UHGV virus genome: UHGV-0141098
Length of the DNA stretch: 19,773 nt
Source of the DNA: a virus
Direction: 5' to 3' (one strand)
The notes below the pieces were generated by a model. It was not told where the DNA came from and made no database searches. It was given only the letters and a program-made list of their open reading frames with translations. The first letter of the stretch is position 1. Each line of letters opens with the position of its first letter. Made by a program: the position numbers and the translations under genes. Below are positions 1-19,773 of the stretch, one piece after another.

Positions 1-50
1 GAAGATTCCGACGTTACTAACTGAGTGTTGTATCTAATCGTGGGGGCAGG

Positions 51-161
51 TCACATGAAGTAGTTGGCAATAACGCCTGGTATATCCCTGGTACTGATAC
101 AGGCAGTGTGCTGTTCAATTGCCTCGATCATCTCTTCACGGGTGACTAATGACGTTCTCAT
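51..161 (-). CDS. small hypothetical protein, 36 aa (MRTSLVTREEMIEAIEQHTACISTRDIPGVIANYFM)
   Basis: Not in the ORF track (below length cutoff). ATG at 161..159 is preceded by an AGGAGGG Shine-Dalgarno and overlaps the stop of the upstream ORF in an ATGA arrangement. No recognisable motif. Confidence 0.3.
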   Translation of the reverse strand: MRTSLVTREEMIEAIEQHTACISTRDIPGVIANYFM

Positions 162-379
162 AGTCCCTCCTGAGCAGAAGCGTTAACAGGGAGGCACCAG
201 TAACTGAGAGAATTGCGTGAATCAGTGGAAAAACGGGCAGAGAAAATACATGGGGCGTCAGGAAGCTGAGAGCGGGCCTCATCTTCTGTTGGTGCAATAA
301 CGAAGTGATAGTGACGTTTTTGGCAGGAGTAAAAGCGCCAGATAAATTCAGGATGAGTTGGGGTAGGGATAGTAGCCAT
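158..379 (-). CDS. small hypothetical protein, 73 aa (internal start of track ORF 158..607)
   Basis: ATG at 379..377 is preceded 9 nt upstream by AAGGAGG. The longer track ORF (start 607) would read through the terminator hairpin at 544..573, so the internal start is preferred. Stop overlaps the start of the 36-aa ORF. Confidence 0.35.
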   Translation of the reverse strand: MATIPTPTHPEFIWRFYSCQKRHYHFVIAPTEDEARSQLPDAPCIFSARFSTDSRNSLSYWCLPVNASAQEGL

Positions 380-543
380 ATTGGCAGCCTCCTTAGACGT
401 TGGTATGTAACCACCGCAGAAGAGACCAATCTTGCTGGCGGTGGACTGTACGGAGTTGGCCTTACTGGCGTCCAAGGTAACCAGCCTACCCGAAGGTAGC
501 CCCATACAGCCCACCATTGTAGAGGTGTGCGTGTACGCCGATA

Positions 544-573
544 CAAAAAAAAGACGCGAGCGGCGTCTGTATC
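544..573 (-). terminator. putative Rho-independent terminator downstream of pacB
   Basis: On the minus strand: GC-rich 5-bp stem GACGC/GCGTC with a 5-nt loop, followed by T8. An outer GATACA/TGTATC pairing can extend the stem. Confidence 0.45.
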
Positions 574-698
574 GCCTTAGACTTAAGCGGGAGGCCAATC
601 CCGGCACCCGTTTTAATGAGGTGCCTGATAAGCATAAACCGAAAATGCCTCAAGGCGCAAGAGGTCAGGCTCAATGTAACATCGGTAGTTAAAAAACA

Positions 699-715
699 CA
701 ATTTATTAGAGCAAA
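699..715 (-). promoter_or_regulatory. C1-repressor-type operator (match to P1 consensus ATTGCTCTAATAAATTT)
   Basis: Minus strand reads TTTGCTCTAATAAATTG, 15/17 to the recalled P1 C1 operator consensus. Lies 3 nt after the pacB stop codon; contains a -35-like TTGCTC. Confidence 0.55.
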
Positions 716-718
716 TAT

Positions 719-2203
719 TCATTCATTAAGCCATGCCAGAGCCTCATCAACCTGCGCTTCGTCTTCGACGCTAAGCACTTCATCCTGGGGAACATAATCC
801 GCCAGCATAGCGAAACAATATGTATCCCAATGGTCTGGTGAGTGCAGGTTGAGTTTTTTCTTCATATCCTCCTTACTCATCACCTTCCATTGACCTGCGG
901 AGTTAATCCCTACAGGGATTTTCGACGCTTCCTCAATAGTTTCATTACCCTTATCCAGTCTCATACGACCAGATTTTACGGCCTCTGCGGCTTGAACGTT
1001 GGCATAAGCACGTTTATCAAAGTACAGGCTCTTATCTTCACGGCTATGCATCTTTTTACCCCAGCGTATACGCTGTACGGTAATACCATAATACTCGTAC
1101 ATCAGATCCGCTGTTGCTTTACCCAGGCCATCTCCATCTATCGCTATGGTGATATTGGGGAATCGCTCAGGATTACATTCTGCGAAAATTTTGGCGGCAA
1201 GCTGCGTTTCTGTAACGTCTGTGTATTCCAGCATTCGATAGTTGATTACACGGCGTTTATTTCGCTGGCCGGACACCATCATGATATTGATAACTGACTT
1301 ATCCCGTCCCGTACCACCAGCAACGTCCACACATGCAAGCCAGCCCCATCCTTTGGCAATCTTAACTTTCCGCCGCGTTGCACGTTCAACCTCATCACGT
1401 CCAAGAAGGAAGCCGTCCTGTGATTTAGGGAATAGGCCGCGCACCTTAATCATGTACATAGGGTTATCACGCCCGCCGTACTCCGCCAGCTTCATTTTGA
1501 TAAATTCTGGCGTTACCAGCGGTGATTCCTCACTGTTAAGCGTGATCGCCGTATAAACGCCATCTGGGTTACCAGGACGCTTGGCCAGTTTATGGTGAGT
1601 ATCGTAGAAATAGCCGCTTGGGCGTGTAGGCTGTGACAGTAATAAGATGCGGTTATCCTGTCCGGTAAGAGCACCGGTGATGATACCGAAAGCTCTATCA
1701 CTGACACCGGAGGCTTCATCGATAATATACAGAAGATGATCTGCGTGTTCACCGGCGAGAGCTTCTTCACTTCCCAGACGAAAGCCCTTCGGTACTACAG
1801 TCCATACACCTTTACCAGTAACCTCATAGAAAGCGGTTTCTGTCAGAACAAAATAATCAGCAAGCCATGGAAAACGGCTGGTGGCAGTAGCCCAGTTTAT
1901 CTTGATGTACTTGAATATACCGGTCATTACCTGCTGAATTTTGTTCGCAACGATAATGGCGCGGGCACCGGGATACATGATTATGAACAACATGATCATG
2001 ATAGAAGTCATGTCTGATTTCCCGGTACCGTGACCAGACGAAACAGATGTCTTGCTACCCTGTTCCTGCACAGACTCAATAATCAGATCCTGCTGCCAGG
2101 TAGGTGTTTTGCCGAACAAAACATCAGCGGCCGCAATCCAGTCATAACGATATAGCGCCACCAGCTCGCGCCAACGTGGATCCGTTACGCAACTTCTGGC
2201 CAT
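719..2203 (-). CDS. pacB: P1-type pacase (terminase) large subunit PacB, 494 aa
   Basis: 494-aa ORF with a P-loop-like GHGTGKS segment. Size and position (directly after a 397-aa pacA that contains a pac site) match P1 PacB as recalled. Start overlaps the pacA stop by 1 nt. Confidence 0.8.
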
Positions 2204-3396
2204 TAATCATCATCCCCGTATAGCTTGCGGGTGACTTCTTCGTCTTCCTCCTCGTCTTCGTCCAGGTCTTGTTCCAGCCATGGGTCGTTTGATACACCTT
2301 CAGTATCAACATCCCCATAACCGCCTGTATCAACGATATCGGCGATTTCTTCCCTACGCTGCTCAATCCACAATGCGGCATCGGCGCGGCGGTTGGCGGC
2401 CCGTTCTCGCGCAACTTTGTCCAGATCTTCAAGAGAAGGGCCACCGACGGCTGTTTGCCTTTCCTCATCATCGGTATTGGTCTTAGGAGCACGCAGATCG
2501 GCTTTGATTTGCTCCAGCATCAGGGGCGGCACTTTCCCGCCATGCGCCTCGATGAATTCAGCTGCTTCCAGCACTGACCAGTTATTTTCACGCTTTCGTT
2601 CGTATGCCAGCTTAACAATGCCAGCTTGCCCCATAGACAAAGCGTGCTTTTCCGCCTCCCGGCTTTCTTTTCGATAGTTATTCAGGATGCTGTAAATGGT
2701 GTTGATCAGGCTGCTTATCTGCGCGGAACAGCTGTTTAGCATGCTCGCGATACGGTATTCAGGCGGAGTACCTTCATCATCGTCTTTTTGCTGATCGCGC
2801 ATTTCCTGCACCAGGCGAATACACGTATCCCGGGCGTTCTCCAGCATAAGGAGATGAGAAAGAGACTTTTCCAGAAGAGTGGTTTCCAGAACATCAGCTC
2901 CGGAACGACGCAACATAGCGCGCGCGGCCTTCCACGCTTCAACGTTATCTATCAGGTAATCGCCAGCTTCGAATTCAAAGCGTTCACCATCATCATCCAG
3001 GGTGTCGCGTTCCAGGCGATCACGTAAGGTACGGTGGGCGCGGGTGATCACGTCATGATCATCAGAACGATCATTTATGCGCTTATTTTGGCGCTTAGCG
3101 TTCTCGACTGCGGCACTGACAACAGCATTAACTCTTTGTTTTTCAGCCGTTTCAGCCACAATGTGATCACCTGCACGTTGATCATTAGCGTGATCAATGA
3201 TCATGCTTTTTAGTGGTTTCCTGACAGGCTTATTTGGCTTACGGCTATCCGCTGTTCCGGTGTCTTCTTTGAATGCACGGAGATAACGACGTGCGGTGTT
3301 TGGGTTGAGATTAAACTCGGCGGCATATTGTGCGATGGTGTAACCACCATCTCGCGCCAGGCGAGCAAAATTCTTCTTGTGATCGTCCCAGGTCAC
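2203..3396 (-). CDS. pacA: P1-type pacase subunit PacA (pac-site recognition), 397 aa
   Basis: 397-aa ORF with GTG start and AGGAAG Shine-Dalgarno. N-terminal HTH-like segment, acidic C-terminus. Contains the hexamer-cluster pac site internally, as in P1 pacA. Confidence 0.8.
3017..3203. other. P1-type pac packaging site (two clusters of TGATCA hexamers carrying Dam GATC sites)
   Basis: GATC-containing hexamers at 3017-3022, 3045-3050, 3056-3061, 3068-3073 and at 3164-3169, 3179-3184, 3191-3196, 3198-3203, with a hexamer-free segment of about 90 bp between the clusters. This matches the known P1 pac architecture of hexamer clusters flanking the cleavage region inside pacA. Confidence 0.75.
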
Positions 3397-4005: not shown

Positions 4006-4022
4006 CAATACATTAGAGCAAT
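4006..4022 (-). promoter_or_regulatory. C1-repressor-type operator upstream of lpa
   Basis: Minus strand reads ATTGCTCTAATGTATTG (core ATTGCTCTAAT exact). Followed by TTGCTA -35-like and TATTAT -10-like elements before the lpa Shine-Dalgarno. Begins 1 nt after the stop of the upstream 347-aa gene. Confidence 0.55.
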
Positions 4023-6056: not shown

Positions 6057-7615
6057 ATGAAAATGACAAGTATTCAACAACGTGCAGAGCTTCATCGTCA
6101 AATCTGGCAAATTGCTAACGATGTCAGGGGTTCGGTCGATGGATGGGATTTTAAGCAATACGTTCTGGGCGCACTTTTCTACCGTTTTATCAGCGAAAAT
6201 TTTTCCAGCTATATTGAAGCCGGTGATGACAGTATCTGTTATGCGAAACTGGATGACAGCGTAATTACTGATGACATTAAAGACGATGCCATCAAAACTA
6301 AAGGCTACTTCATCTACCCCAGTCAGCTTTTCTGCAACGTAGCGGCGAAAGCAAATACTAATGACAGACTGAATGCAGATTTAAACAGCATCTTCGTTGC
6401 TATCGAAAGTTCTGCTTACGGTTATCCTTCAGAAGCTGACATCAAAGGTTTGTTTGCTGATTTCGATACCACCAGTAACCGCCTGGGTAACACCGTTAAA
6501 GATAAAAATGCCCGCCTGGCTGCGGTTCTGAAAGGGGTTGAAGGGTTAAAACTTGGTGACTTCAACGAACATCAGATTGACCTGTTCGGTGATGCCTATG
6601 AGTTCCTGATTTCTAACTATGCGGCAAATGCCGGTAAGTCAGGCGGCGAGTTCTTTACACCGCAGCACGTCTCCAAGCTGATTGCACAACTGGCTATGCA
6701 CGGGCAGACCAGCGTTAACAAAATCTACGACCCGGCAGCGGGTTCCGGCTCACTGTTGTTGCAGGCGAAAAAACAGTTTGATAACCACATCATCGAAGAA
6801 GGCTTTTTCGGTCAGGAAATCAACCATACGACCTATAACCTGGCGCGTATGAACATGTTTTTGCACAATATCAACTACGACAAGTTTGATATCAAGCTGG
6901 GTAATACACTGACTGAGCCGCACTTCAGAGATGAAAAACCGTTTGACGCCATCGTATCTAACCCACCGTATTCGGTGAAATGGATTGGCAGCGATGACCC
7001 GACGCTGATTAACGATGAGCGTTTTGCCCCGGCTGGCGTTCTGGCCCCCAAATCCAAAGCTGACTTTGCGTTTGTACTACATGCGCTGAACTATCTTTCG
7101 GCCAAAGGTCGTGCTGCGATTGTCTGCTTCCCGGGTATTTTTTACCGTGGCGGCGCAGAGCAGAAAATCCGTCAGTATCTGGTCGATAATAACTATGTCG
7201 AAACCGTAATTTCACTGGCACCGAACCTGTTCTTTGGCACCACCATTGCAGTAAACATTCTGGTGCTGTCTAAGCATAAAACGGATACCAAAGTTCAGTT
7301 TATTGACGCCAGCGAACTGTTCAAAAAAGAGACTAACAACAATATCCTGACCGACGCCCATATCGAACAGATTATGCAGGTATTTGCCAGCAAGGAAGAT
7401 GTTGCTCATCTGGCGAAATCTGTCGCGTTTGAAGCCGTTGTAGCGAATGACTATAACCTGTCGGTGAGCAGCTATGTGGAAGCGAAAGATACTCGCGAAA
7501 TTATCGATATCGCTGAGTTGAATGCAGAGCTGAAAACCACGGTCAGCAAAATCGACCAGTTACGCCAAGACATTGATGCGATCGTGGCTAGAATTGAAGG
7601 CAGAGAGGTACAGGC

Positions 7616-7619
<4 letters not shown>
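6057..7619 (+). CDS. hsdM: Type I restriction-modification N6-adenine DNA methyltransferase subunit HsdM, 520 aa
   Basis: AdoMet-binding motif [10 protein letters not shown] and catalytic NPPY motif (SNPPYSVKW). N-terminus [17 protein letters not shown] matches EcoR124-family HsdM as recalled. Stop overlaps the hsdS start (ATGA). Confidence 0.95.
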
Positions 7620-8836
<1,217 letters not shown>

Positions 8837-8957
8837 TTGACCATTGCTACCGATCGGGCCACCTTAACACCCGGTCAGTATATAGACTATTTTTTACGCG
8901 CCGGAAGTCACTCTTAACGCCCTTCCGGCTCTTGCCAGGCGGCACAAAGGATGCGCT

Positions 8958-11900
8958 ATGACTCATCAAACACACACCATTGCTGAATCCAATAACTATA
9001 TCGTCCTTGATAAGTACATCAAAGCTAAGCAAACAAGCGACAGCTACCAGAGCGAATCGGACCTGGAACGTGAACTGATTCAGGACCTGCGGAATCAGGG
9101 TTATGAATTTATTTCCGTAAAATCACAGTCGGCAATGCTGTCCAATGTTCGGGAACAGCTTCAGAACCTCAATGGTGTGGTGTTTAATGACAGCGAGTGG
9201 CGGCGTTTCACGGAGCAGTATCTGGATAACCCGAGCGATGGCATTCTGGATAAGACCCGTAAAATCCATATCGACTATATTTGCGACTTTATTTTTGATG
9301 ACGAGCGTCTTGAGAACATCTATTTGATAGATAAAAAGAATCTCATGCGCAATAAGGTGCAGATTATCCAGCAGTTTGAACAGGCGGGTTCTCACGCTAA
9401 CCGTTATGACGTAACTATCCTGGTTAATGGCTTACCGCTGGTGCAAATCGAACTGAAAAAACGCGGCGTGGCGATTCGTGAGGCTTTCAACCAGATACAT
9501 CGTTACAGTAAAGAGAGTTTTAACAGCGAAAATTCCCTGTTTAAGTATCTGCAGCTGTTCGTCATTTCCAACGGCACTGATACCCGTTATTTTGCCAACA
9601 CGACAAAGCGCGATAAAAACAGTTTTGACTTCACCATGAATTGGGCGAAATCAGACAACACGCTGATTAAAGACCTCAAAGACTTTACCGCTACCTTTTT
9701 CCAGAAACATACTCTGCTGAATGTTCTGGTGAACTACAGCGTTTTTGACAGTAGTCAGACGCTACTGGTGATGCGACCGTACCAGATTGCCGCCACCGAG
9801 CGCATTCTGTGGAAAATTAAGAGTTCCTTTACAGCGAAGAACTGGTCAAAACCGGAAAGCGGTGGGTATATCTGGCACACTACCGGTTCTGGTAAAACCC
9901 TCACCAGCTTTAAAGCCGCGCGTCTGGCAACAGAGCTGGACTTTATTGATAAAGTCTTCTTTGTGGTCGACAGGAAAGACCTCGATTACCAGACCATGAA
10001 GGAATATCAGCGTTTTTCGCCAGACAGCGTCAACGGCTCGGAAAATACCGCAGGCCTTAAACGAAATCTGGATAAGGACGATAACAAAATTATCGTCACT
10101 ACTATTCAGAAACTCAATAACCTGATGAAAGCAGAAAGCGATCTGCCTGTATATAATCAGCAAGTGGTGTTTATATTTGATGAATGCCACCGCAGCCAGT
10201 TTGGAGAAGCGCAGAAAAACCTGAAGAAGAAATTCAAACGCTATTATCAGTTTGGTTTTACCGGCACCCCTATTTTCCCGGAAAACGCCTTAGGCTCAGA
10301 AACAACCGCCAGCGTATTTGGTCGTGAATTGCATTCGTATGTAATTACCGATGCGATTCGTGACGAAAAAGTGCTCAAATTCAAGGTGGACTACAACGAT
10401 GTGCGGCCACAGTTTAAGTCTTTAGAGACAGAAACTGACGAGAAAAAACTGAGTGCGGCTGAAAATCAGCAGGCGTTTCTTCATCCCATGCGTATTCAGG
10501 AAATCACGCAATATATTCTGAATAATTTCCGCCAGAAAACCCACCGTACCTTCCCTGGCTCAAAAGGTTTTAATGCTATGTTGGCAGTGAGCAGCGTGGA
10601 TGCCGCGAAAGCCTATTATGCGACGTTTAAACGGTTACAAGAAGAAGCCGCTAATAAATCGGCTACCTATAAACCGCTGCGTATTGCGACAATCTTCTCC
10701 TTTGCCGCCAATGAAGAACAAAATGCCATTGGTGAAATTTCCGATGAAACTTTTGATACCAGCGCAATGGACAGCAGTGCTAAAGAGTTTCTGGATGCTG
10801 CAATTCGTGAGTATAACAGCTATTTTAAAACTAACTTCAGCACCGACAGTAACGGTTTTCAGAACTACTATCGTGATTTAGCCCAACGGGTTAAAAATCA
10901 GGATATCGATCTGTTAATTGTCGTGGGAATGTTTTTAACCGGCTTCGATGCTCCAACATTAAACACGCTATTCGTCGATAAAAACTTGCGTTTTCACGGC
11001 CTGATGCAGGCATTTTCCCGCACCAACCGCATTTATGACGCTACTAAAACCTTCGGTAATATTGTCACGTTCCGGGATCTGGAACGCTCAACCATTGATG
11101 CCATAACGCTGTTTGGTGACAAAAATACCAAAAATGTGGTTTTAGAAAAGAGTTATGCAGAGTATATGGAAGGCTTTACTGATGCTGCCACTGGTGAAGC
11201 TAAACGCGGCTTCATGACAGTAGTTTCAGAACTGGAACAACGGTTCCCTGACCCTACCAGTATTGAAAGTGAAAAAGAGAAGAAAGACTTCGTTAAACTG
11301 TTTGGCGAATACCTGCGTGCCGAGAACATCCTGCAAAACTATGATGAATTTGCCACGCTAAAAGCCCTGCAACAAATCGATCTTAGCGATCCTGTTGCGG
11401 TAGAAAAATTCAAAGCAGAACATTATGTGGATGATGAAAAGTTCGCTGAATTGCAAACAATTCGTCTCCCTGCTGATCGCAAGATTCAGGATTATCGTTC
11501 TGCCTATAACGATATTCGCGACTGGCAGCGCCGTGAGAAAGAAGCTGAGAAAAAAGAGAAATCAACCACTGACTGGGATGACGTGGTTTTTGAGGTCGAT
11601 TTGCTGAAGTCTCAGGAAATAAACCTGGATTATATCCTTGGACTGATTTTCGAACACAACAGACAAAATAAAGGCAAGGGCGAAATGATCGAAGAGGTCA
11701 AACGCTTAATTCGTTCAAGCCTGGGGAACCGGGCGAAAGAGGGCCTGGTGGTCGATTTTATTCAGCAAACGAACCTGGATGATTTACCAGACAAAGCCAG
11801 TATCATTGAGGCATTCTTTACGTTTGCTCAACGCGAACAGCAACGTGAAGCAGAAGCATTGATAAAAGAAGAAAATCTCAATGAAGATGCAGCAAAACGC

Positions 11901-12074
11901 TATATTCGCACGTCTTTAAAACGCGAATACGCCACCGAAAATGGCACAGAATTAAACGAAACATTACCAAAACTTAGTCCGTTGAATCCGCAATATAAAA
12001 CGAAAAAACAGGCAGTTTTCCAGAAAATCGTCTCGTTTATTGAGAAGTTTAAAGGCGTAGGCGGAAAAATATAG
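8958..12074 (+). CDS. hsdR: Type I restriction endonuclease/translocase subunit HsdR, 1038 aa (EcoR124I-like)
   Basis: PD-(D/E)xK nuclease residues D151, E165, K167 ([20 protein letters not shown]). SF2 helicase motifs [12 protein letters not shown] and TGTP. Length of 1038 aa and N-terminus [14 protein letters not shown] match EcoR124I HsdR as recalled. Confidence 0.95.
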
Positions 12075-12324: not shown

Positions 12325-12341
12325 AGATTTATTAGAGCAAT
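12325..12341 (-). promoter_or_regulatory. C1-repressor-type operator with overlapping promoter-like elements
   Basis: Minus strand reads ATTGCTCTAATAAATCT (16/17 to consensus). Its first base is the last base of the upstream gene's stop codon. -35-like TTGCTC, a 17-nt spacer, then TAAAAC. Confidence 0.6.
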
Positions 12342-13870: not shown

Positions 13871-14146
13871 GTGGCTTCTGTTTCTATCAGCTGTCCCTCC
13901 TGTTCAGCTACTGAAGGCGTGGTGCGTAACGGTAAAAGTACTGCCGGACATCAGCGCTATCTCTGCTCTCACTGCCGTAAAACATGGCAGCTACAGTTCA
14001 CTTACACCGCTTCTCAACCCGGTACGCATCAGAAAATCATTGATATGGCCATGAATGGCGTCGGATGTCGCGCCAGTGCACGCATTATGGGCGTTGGCCT
14101 CAACACGGTTTTACGTCACTTAAAAAACTCAGGCCGCAGTCGGTAA
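13871..14146 (+). CDS. insA: IS1 InsA (transposition inhibitor; N-terminal part of InsAB' transposase), 91 aa
   Basis: Protein [51 protein letters not shown]... matches IS1 InsA as recalled. Confidence 0.9.
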
Positions 14147-14568
14147 CCTCGCGCATACAACCGGGCAGTGATGTGATTGTCTGCGCTGAAATGGACGAAC
14201 AGTGGGGCTACGTCGGTGCTAAATCACGCCAGCGCTGGTTGTTTTACGCGTATGACAGGATACGGAGGACGGTTGTGGCGCACGTATTCGGTGAACGCAC
14301 GCTGGCCACGCTGGAGCGTCTTCCGGGCCTGCTGTCGGCCTTTGAGGTCGTGGTATGGATGACGGATGGCTGGCCGCTTTATGAATCACGCCTGAAGGGA
14401 GAACTGCACGTTATCAGCAAGCGATATACGCAGCGCATTGAGCGGCATAACCTGAATCTGAGGCAGCATCTGGCAAGGCTGGGCAGGAAGTCACTGTCGT
14501 TCTCAAAATCGGTGGAGCTGCATGACAAAGTCATCGGGCATTATCTGAACATAAAACACTATCAGTAA
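14065..14568 (+). CDS. insB: IS1 insB reading frame (expressed as InsAB' by -1 frameshift at the A6C motif)
   Basis: Frame encodes ...[26 protein letters not shown]...[15 protein letters not shown]...KHYQ, typical of IS1 InsB. The slippery motif AAAAAAC is intact at 14122-14128. Confidence 0.85.
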
Positions 14569-15193: not shown

Positions 15194-15210
15194 ATTGCTC
15201 TAATAAAAAA
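15194..15210 (+). promoter_or_regulatory. C1-repressor-type operator, plus orientation
   Basis: ATTGCTCTAATAAAAAA, 14/17 to consensus. Its A-tail runs directly into the hairpin at 15211-15231. Confidence 0.55.
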
Positions 15211-15242: not shown

Positions 15243-15259
15243 GGAATTATTAGAGCAAT
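15243..15259 (-). promoter_or_regulatory. C1-repressor-type operator, minus orientation
   Basis: Minus strand reads ATTGCTCTAATAATTCC (14/17, core exact). Begins 1 nt after the stop of the 233-aa gene. Followed by the same ATTTTTAAAAC element seen after the operator at 12325. Confidence 0.55.
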
Positions 15260-19111: not shown

Positions 19112-19773
19112 TCACACCAATCTGGTTAAACGGCAAACTAAGTGGTGGTAAAGACTGACATCGGCATTATTACTATCGCTGTGGAACATCACCCCGACGG
19201 GCTTACCACGGGTTTCCCATGCCATTTCCAGTGCTTTCATGGTAAGCCTGCTGTCCGGCGAGAACGACATGGCCCAGCCCACTGGTTTTCTTGCGAACAG
19301 GTCGAGAACAACGGCGAGGTACGCCCAGCGCTTACCCGTCCAGATATAGGTCACATCACCGCACCACACCTGATTTGGCTCGGTCACGGCGAACTGCCGT
19401 TCAAGGTAGTTAGGGATAGCAACATGTTCATGACCACCACGTTTATACCGGTGAGTCGGCTGCTGACAGCTGACCAGCCCCAGCTCTTTCATGAGCCTGC
19501 CAGCAAGCCAGCGTCCCATCTGGTAGCCTCTCCGGGTTGCCATTGTGGCAATGCTTCTTCCTCCGGCCGAACCGTGGCTGATGCCATGTAGCTCAAGTAC
19601 CTGACTGCGTAATACAGCCCGTCTGCCGTCTGGTTTTTCAAGACGGTTTTTCCAGTATCTGTAGCTGCTGCGATGAACCCCGAACACATGGCAGAGTGTG
19701 GCCACAGGATAATGCGCTCTGAGTTTCCCGATTATCGAGAACTGTTCAGGGAGTCTGACATCAAGAGCGCGGT
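19112..19773 (-). mobile_element. IS3-family element fragment (OrfB-like transposase N-terminal two-thirds, 19112..19705; runs off the window)
   Basis: Integrase-core pattern [34 protein letters not shown] ... HSD matches IS3-family OrfB. The ORF ends about 20 aa after the second catalytic Asp, before the expected Glu, so it is truncated. Confidence 0.6.

What the first reader, a model, noticed from the sequence alone, without database searches (positions are those of the whole stretch)
51..545. Two translationally coupled small ORFs with strong ribosome-binding sites where P1 would carry c1
Downstream of the pacB terminator, two minus-strand ORFs (73 aa at 158..379; 36 aa at 51..161) have canonical Shine-Dalgarno sequences (AAGGAGG, AGGAGGG) and an ATGA stop-start overlap. 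The 165-nt region upstream (380..545) is rich in hairpins (CCACCGC...GCGGTGG, CTACC-CGAA-GGTAG) and is open in several frames, which points to a structured RNA leader rather than coding sequence. The layout resembles a small toxin-antitoxin or regulatory pair. No c1-like ORF is present here.
Basis: partly seen in the sequence, partly recalled or inferred. Interest (0 to 1): 0.5.

Follow-up and report, generated by a model that had tools for sequence, protein, structure and literature searches.

The report
IS-truncated P1-type c4–icd–ant antirepressor module
The two "small coupled ORFs with a structured leader" are a second copy of phage P1's well-known antirepressor control unit (C4 antisense RNA, cell-division inhibitor gene icd, antirepressor gene ant), and the 36-codon ORF is only the stump of ant, cut off by an insertion sequence. 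The finding is ordinary and already explained.

Summary
On the minus strand, downstream of pacB, the window carries a complete P1 ImmI-type control unit:
- a C1-operator-like site (699..715);
- an isrK/c4-a1b1-type element with its own intrinsic terminator (547..624, Rfam 60.8 bits);
- a C4 antisense RNA (434..521, Rfam 75.9 bits, E 1.5e-13);
- the C4 target sites a2 (423..429) and b2 (391..399), with b2 overlapping the icd Shine-Dalgarno sequence;
- icd (158..379, 80% identical to P1 Icd);
- the start of ant, overlapping the icd stop in ATGA.

The 36-aa ORF is codons 1-36 of ant. An ISSen4-like IS3-family element (window 1..53) is inserted there, with a 4-bp CATG duplication, and supplies the TGA stop.

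In relatives (RCS47, vB_EcoM-673R5, hundreds of E. coli plasmids) ant is full length and c1 lies just beyond it. The module is therefore an insertion between pacB and c1, not a replacement of c1.

The C4 loops co-vary with both target pairs across eight modules, each with its own specificity. Intact relatives carry this module in addition to the canonical immI.

Interest is low. In passing: the Salmonella Gifsy-1 IsrK/"orf45" system appears to be the same C4 system.

The parts
1..53 (+). Right end of an ISSen4-like IS3-family (IS407-group) insertion sequence. The transposase orfB 3' end with its stop is at 1..24, and the terminal inverted repeat ends ...GGGGGCAGGTCA at 53.
   Evidence: Identical IS end in phage mEp234 and in plasmid NZ_CP060066.1, where it is annotated as an ISSen4 family transposase. 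Left and right ends are inverted repeats TGACCTGC.... The same IS carries the IS1222 frameshift element.
54..57 (.). CATG target-site duplication of the IS insertion
   Evidence: The intact sequence ...GGTGATCATGAAG... in 673R5 and RCS47 compares with ...GATCATG|IS|CATGAAG... in NZ_CP060066.1.
51..161 (-). Truncated ant (antirepressor) gene. Codons 1-36 are at 54..161 and the TGA stop at 51..53 comes from the IS end.
   Evidence: The 36 aa match the N-termini of the 673R5 homologue (35/36 identical; 257-aa Roi/Ant-like CDS) and RCS47 Ant (371 aa; 35/36 identical), and resemble P1 Ant1. PHROG 63 'anti-repressor Ant', E 7.9e-17. Annotated as a partial Ant pseudogene in RefSeq.
158..379 (-). icd, encoding a 73-aa Icd-like cell-division inhibitor. 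Its stop overlaps the ant start in ATGA (158..161).
   Evidence: 80% identity to P1 Icd, E 3e-41. NCBIfam NF033153 phage_ICD_like at 49.8 bits, cutoff 25. PHROG 1426, E 1e-45. 12 synonymous versus 1 non-synonymous codon differences to RCS47.
388..399 (-). icd Shine-Dalgarno AAGGAGG (388..394) overlapped by C4 target site b2, CGUCUAAGG (391..399)
   Evidence: RNAduplex of the C4 b' loop with the leader gives 9 bp, -13.9 kcal/mol. The position matches P1 b2.
411..444 (-). Hairpin CCACCGC (438..444) / GCGGUGG (411..417) that presents C4 target site a2, UUGGUCU (423..429), in its loop. Its 5' arm is the 3' end of C4.
   Evidence: P1 has the same layout, CCUGC...UUGACAG...GCAGG.
434..521 (-). C4 antisense RNA gene. 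The mature RNA is predicted at about 440..515. The b' loop CCUUGGACG is at 469..477, the a' segment AGGCCAA at 456..462, and the UUCG-capped hairpin at 486..499.
   Evidence: Rfam RF01695 at 75.9 bits, E 1.5e-13, full-length match. MFE -41.6 kcal/mol, z -3.5. 12 of 22 pairs show compensatory changes across 9 homologues.
547..624 (-). isrK-like / c4-a1b1-type element. It has a 5' hairpin, a second hairpin with a1 UUGGCCU (592..598) in its loop, b1 GUCUAAGG (575..582), and an intrinsic terminator (stem 552..568 plus U-run).
   Evidence: Rfam RF01394 at 60.8 bits, gathering score 50. Terminator scan. a1/b1 duplexes of -11.3 and -12.4 kcal/mol. The isrK model and the c4-a1b1 model overlap on P1, P7, D6 and Gifsy-1.
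631..660 (-). Putative promoter of the module: TTGCGC (655..660), 18-nt spacer, TATGCT (631..636). This places +1 at about 624, the isrK 5' end. It is inferred only.
   Evidence: Sequence reading. It is below the consensus scanner's threshold. The position corresponds to P1 P51b.
699..715 (-). C1-repressor operator-like site TTTGCTCTAATAAATTG, 3 nt after the pacB stop codon. It corresponds to P1 Oc4/Op51. A possible P51a-like promoter overlaps it (ATTGTGT 696..702, TACATT 673..678).
   Evidence: 2 mismatches to the 17-bp consensus. 5 matches in the window against 0.12 expected. P1 Oc4 sits in the same relative position.
719..2203 (-). pacB (terminase large subunit). This is context only and marks the upstream boundary of the inserted module.

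Best explanation
Window 54..715 (minus strand) is a P1 ImmI-type antirepressor control module. It lies between pacB and c1 in a sub-lineage of P1-like phage-plasmids.

Inferred mechanism, taken from P1/P7 immI:
1. Transcription starts at promoter(s) next to a C1 operator.
2. It runs through an a1/b1-bearing isrK-like element. Some transcripts stop at that element's terminator and give a short RNA.
3. Read-through transcripts contain C4, which is cut out as a stable RNA of about 76 nt.
4. The b' loop and a' segment of C4 pair with b2 and a2 on the same operon's mRNA and cover the icd ribosome-binding site.
5. With icd untranslated, the translationally coupled ant (ATGA overlap) is not made, so the C1 repressor stays active and lysogeny is kept.
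6. The a1/b1 RNA can compete for C4 and relieve the block.

In this window an ISSen4-like IS has cut ant after codon 36. The antirepressor output is therefore lost, and the '36-aa ORF' is an insertion artefact. C4, its target sites and icd are intact.

Shown here: the identity and layout of all parts, the cognate complementarity, and the IS junction.

Inferred from P1/Gifsy-1 work: processing, translational repression, coupling, C1 control and the decoy role of a1/b1.
For: - Rfam finds C4 at 75.9 bits and isrK at 60.8 bits, both above their gathering scores.
- Icd is 80% identical to P1 Icd and matches NF033153.
- The Ant N-terminus matches P1 Ant1, RCS47 Ant and PHROG 63.
- The layout corresponds feature for feature with the annotated P1 immI: Oc4, P51a/b, a1, b1, c4, a2, b2, icd, ATGA, ant1.
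- There is a C1 operator-like site at 699..715.
- In an 8 x 8 matrix, every C4 pairs best with its own a2/b2 and a1/b1. For the window the values are -22.5 and -23.7 kcal/mol, against -18.0 or weaker for non-cognate targets. The loop and target sequences change together.
- The C4 helices show compensatory changes in 12 of 22 pairs.
- IS junction: homology to intact relatives stops at 54, the TSD is CATG, and plasmid NZ_CP060066.1 holds the other 335 codons of ant beyond the IS, then c1.
- 327 of 5,426 complete E. coli genomes carry the module. One carries the IS junction.
- Gifsy-1 mutational data on IsrK map onto a1:a' pairs.
Against: - No expression data exist for this copy.
- The promoter hexamers are weak (3/6 and 4/6) and fall below the scanner's threshold.
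- Duplex energy alone is not unique. About 0.5-0.7% of shuffled leaders reach the observed value, and an unrelated place in the window (about 19351..19430) scores -24.3 kcal/mol. The case for targeting therefore rests on position and covariation.
- a2 and b2 each include one G.U pair in this copy.
- The module is not at the P1 immI locus and has no sim or kilA-repL neighbours.
- With ant broken, the unit may be decaying.
- C1 binding, RNase P processing and Rho-dependent polarity are carried over from P1 and were not tested.
Confidence: 0.93

Rival explanations
1. One reading: the two small ORFs are a self-contained pair of peptides, either toxin-antitoxin or regulatory, translated from a structured leader.
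For: Both ORFs have strong SD sequences and an ATGA overlap. Icd is a growth-inhibiting protein in P1 according to its annotation. An RNA-controlled toxic peptide therefore loosely resembles a type I toxin-antitoxin pair.
Against: The 36-aa ORF exists only because an IS supplies its stop codon. In 326 of 327 genomes with the module the frame continues to a full antirepressor. Neither peptide matches any Pfam family, including toxin-antitoxin families. The leader is a trans-acting C4 RNA family member with two target pairs.
Confidence: 0.03
2. The unit is an inert relic. After the IS hit nothing here is expressed or selected, and C4 and icd are intact only because the insertion is recent.
For: ant is broken. 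The only database record with this junction is an IS-riddled mosaic plasmid that has lost most P1 functions and has no second c4. The sequence is 99-100% identical to intact copies, so there has been no time for decay.
Against: The promoter region, operator, C4, a1/b1, a2/b2 and icd carry no disabling changes relative to intact copies. C4 RNA alone would still confer immunity against Ant expression by an incoming phage of the same C4 specificity, as known for P1/P7 c4.
Confidence: 0.15
3. The isrK-like hairpin and terminator is simply the pacB transcription terminator, and the C4-like fold is a cis-acting attenuator or leader of icd rather than a trans-acting antisense RNA.
For: The terminator is the first one downstream of pacB on the same strand. 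Weinberg et al. noted that some C4 representatives overlap terminator hairpins and might act in cis.
Against: The element matches the isrK model over its full length, including the two upstream hairpins. It is conserved with C4 in Stx phages, D6 and Gifsy-1, where no pacB is nearby. a1/b1 co-vary with the C4 loops. In P1, C4 acts in trans (established knowledge; P1 annotation).
Confidence: 0.04

Closest known systems
Phage P1/P7 immI operon (Op51-P51a/b-a1b1-c4-a2b2-icd-ant1/ant2)
   Same: Same parts in the same order and on the same strand logic. These include a C1 operator upstream, a C4 RNA of the same Rfam family, a'/b' complementary to a1/b1 and a2/b2, b2 over the icd RBS, a 73-aa Icd (80% identical), an ATGA icd/ant overlap and a homologous Ant N-terminus.
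   Different: Genomic position differs: it lies between pacB and c1, convergent with c1, instead of next to sim and kilA-repL. The a'/b' specificity differs (AGGCCAA / CCUUGGACG against P1 CUGUCAA / UCACUAAC). The a1/b1 unit is of the isrK subtype. The central Ant region of intact copies carries an ORF6N domain. Here ant is truncated by an IS.
The pacB-c1 insertion of RCS47, pTZ20_1P, vB_EcoM-673R5, JL22 and many E. coli P1-like plasmids
   Same: It is the same insertion at the same site. Identity is 99% to 673R5 and 85-86% to RCS47 and JL22. [quoted passage not shown]
   Different: The window copy has the ISSen4-like insertion in ant. RCS47 has a different C4 specificity (GUCUCAA / CCUUUGAC) with matching target changes. 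The published description and the RCS47 annotation do not name c4 or icd for this copy.
Salmonella Gifsy-1 isrK-orf45-anrP locus (Hershko-Shalev et al. 2016, PMC4825925)
   Same: An isrK-family RNA with its own terminator, followed by a C4-family RNA and an antirepressor gene. Read-through of the terminator gives the mRNA. The short RNA pairs with the downstream C4 region.
   Different: Gifsy-1 has no icd. The stretch was interpreted as a 45-codon ORF coupled to anrP, and the output acts on AntQ. The host element is lambdoid, not P1-like.
isrK-C4-Rha/antirepressor units of Stx-converting lambdoid phages (e.g. LC710660.1)
   Same: 79% nucleotide identity over isrK and C4 (window 347..624). Both RNAs are annotated in that record.
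   Different: No icd-sized ORF is annotated in the Stx phage record: C4 is followed by a 215-aa protein gene, although the leader after C4 opens with an AUGGCUACUAUCCC... start resembling that of icd (not followed up). The C4 specificity differs.

Membership tests
P1 ImmI-type c4-icd-ant operon | C4 antisense RNA with the family's secondary structure | tested here: met
   RF01695 at 75.9 bits (gathering score 45), full-length. The fold has z -3.5. There are compensatory pairs.
P1 ImmI-type c4-icd-ant operon | a'/b' of C4 are complementary to a2/b2 downstream, with b2 overlapping the RBS of the next ORF | tested here: met
   a2 at 423..429 (7 bp) and b2 at 391..399 (9 bp), overlapping SD 388..394. 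The cognate pairing is the best in the 8 x 8 matrix.
P1 ImmI-type c4-icd-ant operon | a1/b1 sites upstream of c4 | tested here: met
   a1 at 592..598 and b1 at 575..582, inside the isrK-like element. The c4-a1b1 model itself did not reach threshold on the window and scored only 22.3 bits on RCS47.
P1 ImmI-type c4-icd-ant operon | icd homologue followed by ant with overlapping stop and start (translational coupling) | tested here: met
   80% identity to P1 Icd. ATGA at 158..161. The coupling itself is not testable here.
P1 ImmI-type c4-icd-ant operon | Full-length antirepressor gene (Ant1/Ant2) | tested here: not met
   Only codons 1-36 are present, and an IS follows. RCS47 and many plasmids have full-length Ant; the 673R5 homologue is a shorter 257-aa Roi/Ant-like CDS.
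P1 ImmI-type c4-icd-ant operon | C1-controlled operator at the operon promoter | tested here: inconclusive
   There is a 15/17 match to the C1 operator consensus at 699..715, in the position of P1 Oc4. Binding was not tested.
P1 ImmI-type c4-icd-ant operon | Processing of C4 from the precursor by RNase P, and Rho-dependent polarity on ant | not testable with these tools
   Carried over from P1 literature (own knowledge).
P1 ImmI-type c4-icd-ant operon | Location in immI, flanked by sim and kilA-repL | tested here: not met
   It lies between pacB and c1. The canonical immI is a separate locus in 673R5, RCS47 and JL22.
isrK Hfq-binding RNA (RF01394) | Two 5' hairpins plus a Rho-independent terminator, scoring above the Rfam gathering score | tested here: met
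   60.8 bits against a gathering score of 50, model positions 1-77. Terminator confirmed. Hfq binding is not testable.
Two-protein toxin-antitoxin pair | Two intact, conserved small genes belonging to toxin and antitoxin families | tested here: not met
   Neither peptide has a Pfam family. The 36-aa ORF is an IS-truncated ant.
IS3 family, IS407 group (ISSen4-like) | Terminal inverted repeats TGACCTGC..., a 4-bp target duplication, and a two-ORF transposase with programmed frameshift | tested here: met
   Ends and the CATG duplication. IS1222 frameshift element at 156.6 bits. Annotated as an ISSen4 family transposase with programmed frameshift. Only the last 53 bp lie in the window.

The most novel reading that the evidence does not exclude
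The isrK-like RNA is the a1/b1 unit of the C4 system acting as a trans-acting decoy for C4. On this reading the Salmonella Gifsy-1 IsrK/'orf45' (STnc1160) switch and the P1 c4 switch are one and the same three-part RNA device. P1-like phage-plasmids of this lineage would then run two such devices with mutually orthogonal C4 specificities, the canonical immI plus the pacB-c1 copy. That would give two independent antirepressor triggers for one C1 repressor.

I found no paper stating the IsrK = a1b1 and orf45 = C4 equivalence. My search was limited to the held library.
Probability: 0.45. Interest if true: 0.4.

Novelty: already known. Interest (0 to 1): 0.15.

Why it matters
For the finding itself it matters little. 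The region is a textbook regulatory unit that standard libraries recognise (Rfam C4 and isrK, NCBIfam Icd-like, PHROG Ant). Its position between pacB and c1 is already reported for RCS47-type plasmids.

It is useful for annotation in three ways:
- The 36-aa ORF should be labelled as an IS-truncated ant pseudogene.
- The 'leader' should be labelled as c4 plus its target sites.
- The 'pacB terminator' should be labelled as part of the isrK/a1b1 element.

Two modest points go beyond that:
- Intact relatives carry two C4-Icd-Ant modules whose predicted specificities do not cross-react. This bears on heteroimmunity and induction among co-resident P1-like plasmids, which often carry resistance genes.
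- The published Gifsy-1 IsrK mutational data map exactly onto a1:a' pairs of a C4 RNA. This links two literatures that seem to be treated separately.

Tried and rejected
- tRNA or tmRNA. I considered this because of the CCACCA-like end of the hairpin region. ARAGORN found none.
- Toxin-antitoxin or any Pfam family for the two peptides. There were none.
- c1 replaced or lost. Rejected: in 673R5, RCS47 and NZ_CP060066.1 c1 and coi lie just beyond ant.
- A second, canonical immI c4 in the closest record. None was found in NZ_CP060066.1, which is a decayed mosaic. It is present in the intact phages 673R5, RCS47, JL22 and D6.
- Duplex energy as stand-alone evidence for targeting. It is only moderately unusual (10 and 14 of 2,000 shuffles reach it), and an unrelated site in the window reaches a similar value. 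I therefore relied on position and covariation.
- The consensus promoter scan found no minus-strand promoter in 1..900. The promoter I list is a weak manual match by analogy to P1.
- The P1 genome paper (PMC523184) is not in the held library. P1 mechanism statements therefore rest on the GenBank annotation of AF234172, a review, the Weinberg 2010 supplement and my own knowledge.
- Structure prediction and the large protein database searches were not run. Identity was already settled by direct comparison with P1.

Full report
**1. What is in the sequence**

The window is a reversed piece of a P1-like (Punavirus) phage-plasmid. pacB (719..2203) and pacA (2203..3396) lie on the minus strand. [quoted passage not shown]

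- The 73-aa ORF is at 158..379 and the 36-aa ORF at 51..161, both on the minus strand.
- AAGGAGG lies at 388..394 and AGGAGGG at 165..171.
- The ATGA overlap is at 158..161.
- The two inverted repeats are present.
- A hairpin plus T-run is at 552..568.

**2. Identity of the 'structured leader'**

A scan of the whole window against Rfam gave exactly two matches above the curated thresholds.
- C4 antisense RNA (RF01695) at 521..434, minus strand, 75.9 bits, E 1.5e-13.
- isrK (RF01394) at 624..547, minus strand, 60.8 bits.

The 88-nt C4 stretch folds into the family's three-way shape at -41.6 kcal/mol. That is z = -3.5, and 0 of 200 shuffles fold as well. In an alignment of nine homologues, 12 of 22 predicted pairs keep pairing through changes on both sides.

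ARAGORN found no tRNA or tmRNA.

**3. Identity of the two ORFs**

The 73-aa protein is Icd.
- It is 80% identical to P1 Icd over 66 residues, E 3e-41.
- It matches NCBIfam NF033153 'host cell division inhibitor Icd-like' and PHROG 1426.
- Against its RCS47 counterpart it shows 12 synonymous and 1 non-synonymous codon differences, so it is under purifying selection.

The 36-aa peptide is the N-terminus of the antirepressor Ant.
- It differs at one position from residues 1-36 of the 257-aa Roi/Ant-like protein of vB_EcoM-673R5.
- It also differs at one position from the 371-aa Ant of RCS47.
- It aligns with the N-terminus of P1 Ant1.
- It matches PHROG 63 'anti-repressor Ant', E 7.9e-17.

**4. 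Why the second ORF is only 36 codons**

Homology to every intact relative stops at window position 54. Window 1..53 is the right end of an IS3-family element.
- It is identical to an IS copy in phage mEp234.
- It is identical to the ISSen4-family element annotated in plasmid NZ_CP060066.1.

That plasmid reproduces the whole junction at 99.9-100% identity. The intact sequence ...GATCATGAAG... becomes ...GATCATG-[TGACCTGC...GCAGGTCA]-CATGAAG.... This is a 4-bp CATG target duplication with IS407-group ends.

The TGA that closes the 36-aa ORF (51..53) is the terminal TCA of the IS read on the other strand. Beyond the IS, that plasmid holds the remaining ant codons, then convergent c1, coi, cra and cre. 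RefSeq marks the stump there as 'phage antirepressor Ant, incomplete'.

Of 5,426 complete E. coli genomes, 327 carry the module and only this one carries the IS junction.

**5. Comparison with P1**

The richly annotated P1 record (AF234172) gives the immI layout: operator Oc4 (Op51), promoters P51a/P51b, sites a1 and b1, c4 (77 nt), sites a2 and b2, icd (73 aa), and ant1/ant2 with icd and ant1 overlapping by 4 nt.

The window has the same parts in the same order.
- Operator: TTTGCTCTAATAAATTG at 699..715 is a 15/17 match to the C1 operator consensus, 3 nt after the pacB stop. The window has 5 such matches against 0.12 expected.
- a1 and b1: UUGGCCU at 592..598 and GUCUAAGG at 575..582, inside the isrK-like element.
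- C4: the a' segment AGGCCAA at 456..462 and the b' loop CCUUGGACG at 469..477.
- a2: UUGGUCU at 423..429, in a hairpin loop.
- b2: CGUCUAAGG at 391..399, overlapping the icd Shine-Dalgarno sequence.

The Rfam c4-a1b1 model and the isrK model overlap on P1, P7, D6 and Gifsy-1. The isrK-like element is therefore the a1/b1 unit of this sub-lineage.

**6. Evidence that C4 targets are real**

I extracted C4, the upstream region and the downstream leader from eight modules:
- the window;
- the pacB-c1 copy of RCS47;
- two D6 copies;
- Stx phage F039;
- P1;
- P7;
- the canonical immI of 673R5.

Each has different a'/b' sequences, and a1/b1 and a2/b2 change with them.
- RCS47: GUCUCAA/UUGAGAC and CCUUUGAC/GUCAAAGG.
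- P1: CUGUCAA/UUGACAG and UCACUAAC/GUUAGUGA.

In an 8 x 8 matrix of summed duplex energies the cognate combination is the strongest in every row, for both target pairs. For the window these are -22.5 and -23.7 kcal/mol, against -18.0 or weaker for all non-cognate targets.

Energy alone is only moderately unusual. 10 and 14 of 2,000 shuffles reach the observed values, and an unrelated site near 19351..19430 scores -24.3 kcal/mol. The argument therefore rests on position and covariation.

**7. Genomic setting**

In P1, the pacB stop and the c1 stop are 24 nt apart.

In 673R5, RCS47 and NZ_CP060066.1 the order is cre-cra-coi-c1-[ant-icd-c4-isrK]-pacB-pacA-lpa. The module is therefore an insertion of about 1.7 kb between c1 and pacB, and c1 is displaced, not lost.

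[quoted passage not shown] RCS47)' (PMC6906374).

The intact phages 673R5, RCS47, JL22, Ro157c2YLVW and D6 have two places matching icd/c4. These are the canonical immI and an extra copy. The two C4 RNAs of 673R5 are not predicted to cross-react: -14.5 and -8.5 kcal/mol, against -22.5 and -19.3 for the cognate pairs. The closest record to the window, NZ_CP060066.1, is an IS-riddled mosaic and has only this one C4.

**8. Mechanism**

The following steps are taken from P1/P7 immI. The sources are the annotation, the review, the Weinberg 2010 supplement, and my own knowledge of Citron & Schuster 1990, Biere et al. 1992, Riedel et al. 1993 and Hartmann et al. 1995.
- The operon transcript carries C4, which is excised by RNase P.
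- C4 pairs through a' and b' with a2 and b2, and blocks the icd ribosome-binding site.
- Without icd translation, ant is not translated, and transcription is prematurely terminated.
- Ant, when made, inactivates C1.
- The a1/b1 sites were proposed to compete for C4.

What is shown here is that every sequence requirement for this mechanism is present and cognate in the window, except the body of ant. I infer that this copy can still make C4 and, if de-repressed, Icd. It cannot make antirepressor.

**9. Side observation on Gifsy-1**

In phage Gifsy-1 (NC_010392.1), Rfam finds the following directly upstream of anrP:
- isrK at 34316..34240;
- c4-a1b1 at 34329..34277, 48.1 bits;
- C4 at 34214..34131, 69 bits.

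Numbering from the isrK 5' end reproduces the numbering of Hershko-Shalev et al. 2016.
- A107 and U120 fall in the two AUGs of their 'orf45'.
- Their compensatory mutant pairs G28A/C162U and G31A/C159U are base pairs between a1 (UUGGCGU, 26-32) and a' (ACGCCAA, 158-164) of the C4 hit.
- Their ~80-nt processed species STnc1160/orf45' fits a mature C4.

The paper does not mention P1. A 2025 review lists IsrK and c4 separately. The paper's result, that the short terminated IsrK RNA activates antirepressor translation in trans, is what the a1/b1 competition model predicts. It is the best experimental support for a decoy role of the window's isrK-like element.

**10. Verdict**

The feature is a known system in a known position, with an IS-truncated ant. 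Interest is low.

Noticed in passing
L016 (Gifsy-1 NC_010392.1) 34131..34329; relates to window 434..624: The Salmonella Gifsy-1 'isrK-orf45-anrP' locus contains a C4-family RNA (69 bits) where the paper places orf45, and a c4-a1b1 match over isrK. The published compensatory pairs G28/C162 and G31/C159 are a1:a' pairs, and STnc1160 fits a mature C4. The papers I read do not connect IsrK with P1 c4.
   Followed up: partly
L001/L011 (673R5), L002/L012 (RCS47), L007/L014 (D6): Intact P1-like and D6-like phages carry two C4-Icd-Ant modules each, the canonical immI plus an extra copy. Their a'/b' sequences differ and are predicted not to cross-react.
   Followed up: partly
window about 404..505 (L017 1904..2005): RefSeq annotates a partial 'ash family protein' pseudogene on the stretch that is the C4 RNA and its a2 leader. 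This looks like a protein-model hit on an RNA gene.
   Followed up: no
L004 6818..7891 (NZ_CP060066.1): Beyond the IS, PGAP calls a 357-aa 'antirepressor KilAC domain' protein whose first ~20 codons lie inside the IS left end. This is an IS-ant fusion ORF, and it is unknown whether it is expressed.
   Followed up: no
window 4006..4022, 12325..12341, 15194..15210, 15243..15259: Four further C1-operator-like sites with 1-3 mismatches to ATTGCTCTAATAAATTT. Together with 699..715 that makes 5 in the window against 0.12 expected by chance.
   Followed up: no
window 6057..12074: A complete type I restriction-modification system (hsdM 520 aa, hsdS 406 aa, hsdR 1038 aa) sits next to phd/doc. In NZ_CP060066.1 the hsdS gene is interrupted by ISKpn26, so the window is not from that exact record.
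   Followed up: partly
window 14065..14568: An IS1 transposase ORF, so the window holds a second insertion sequence.
   Followed up: no
L007 2763..2842 (phage D6): A weak additional C4-like match (40.2 bits, below the gathering score of 45) about 470 nt upstream of the D6 extra module's C4.
   Followed up: no
window 19351..19430 (+): A 60-nt stretch gives a summed duplex energy of -24.3 kcal/mol with the a' and b' segments of the window's C4. That is as good as the real targets. It is probably chance given the number of positions scanned.
   Followed up: no
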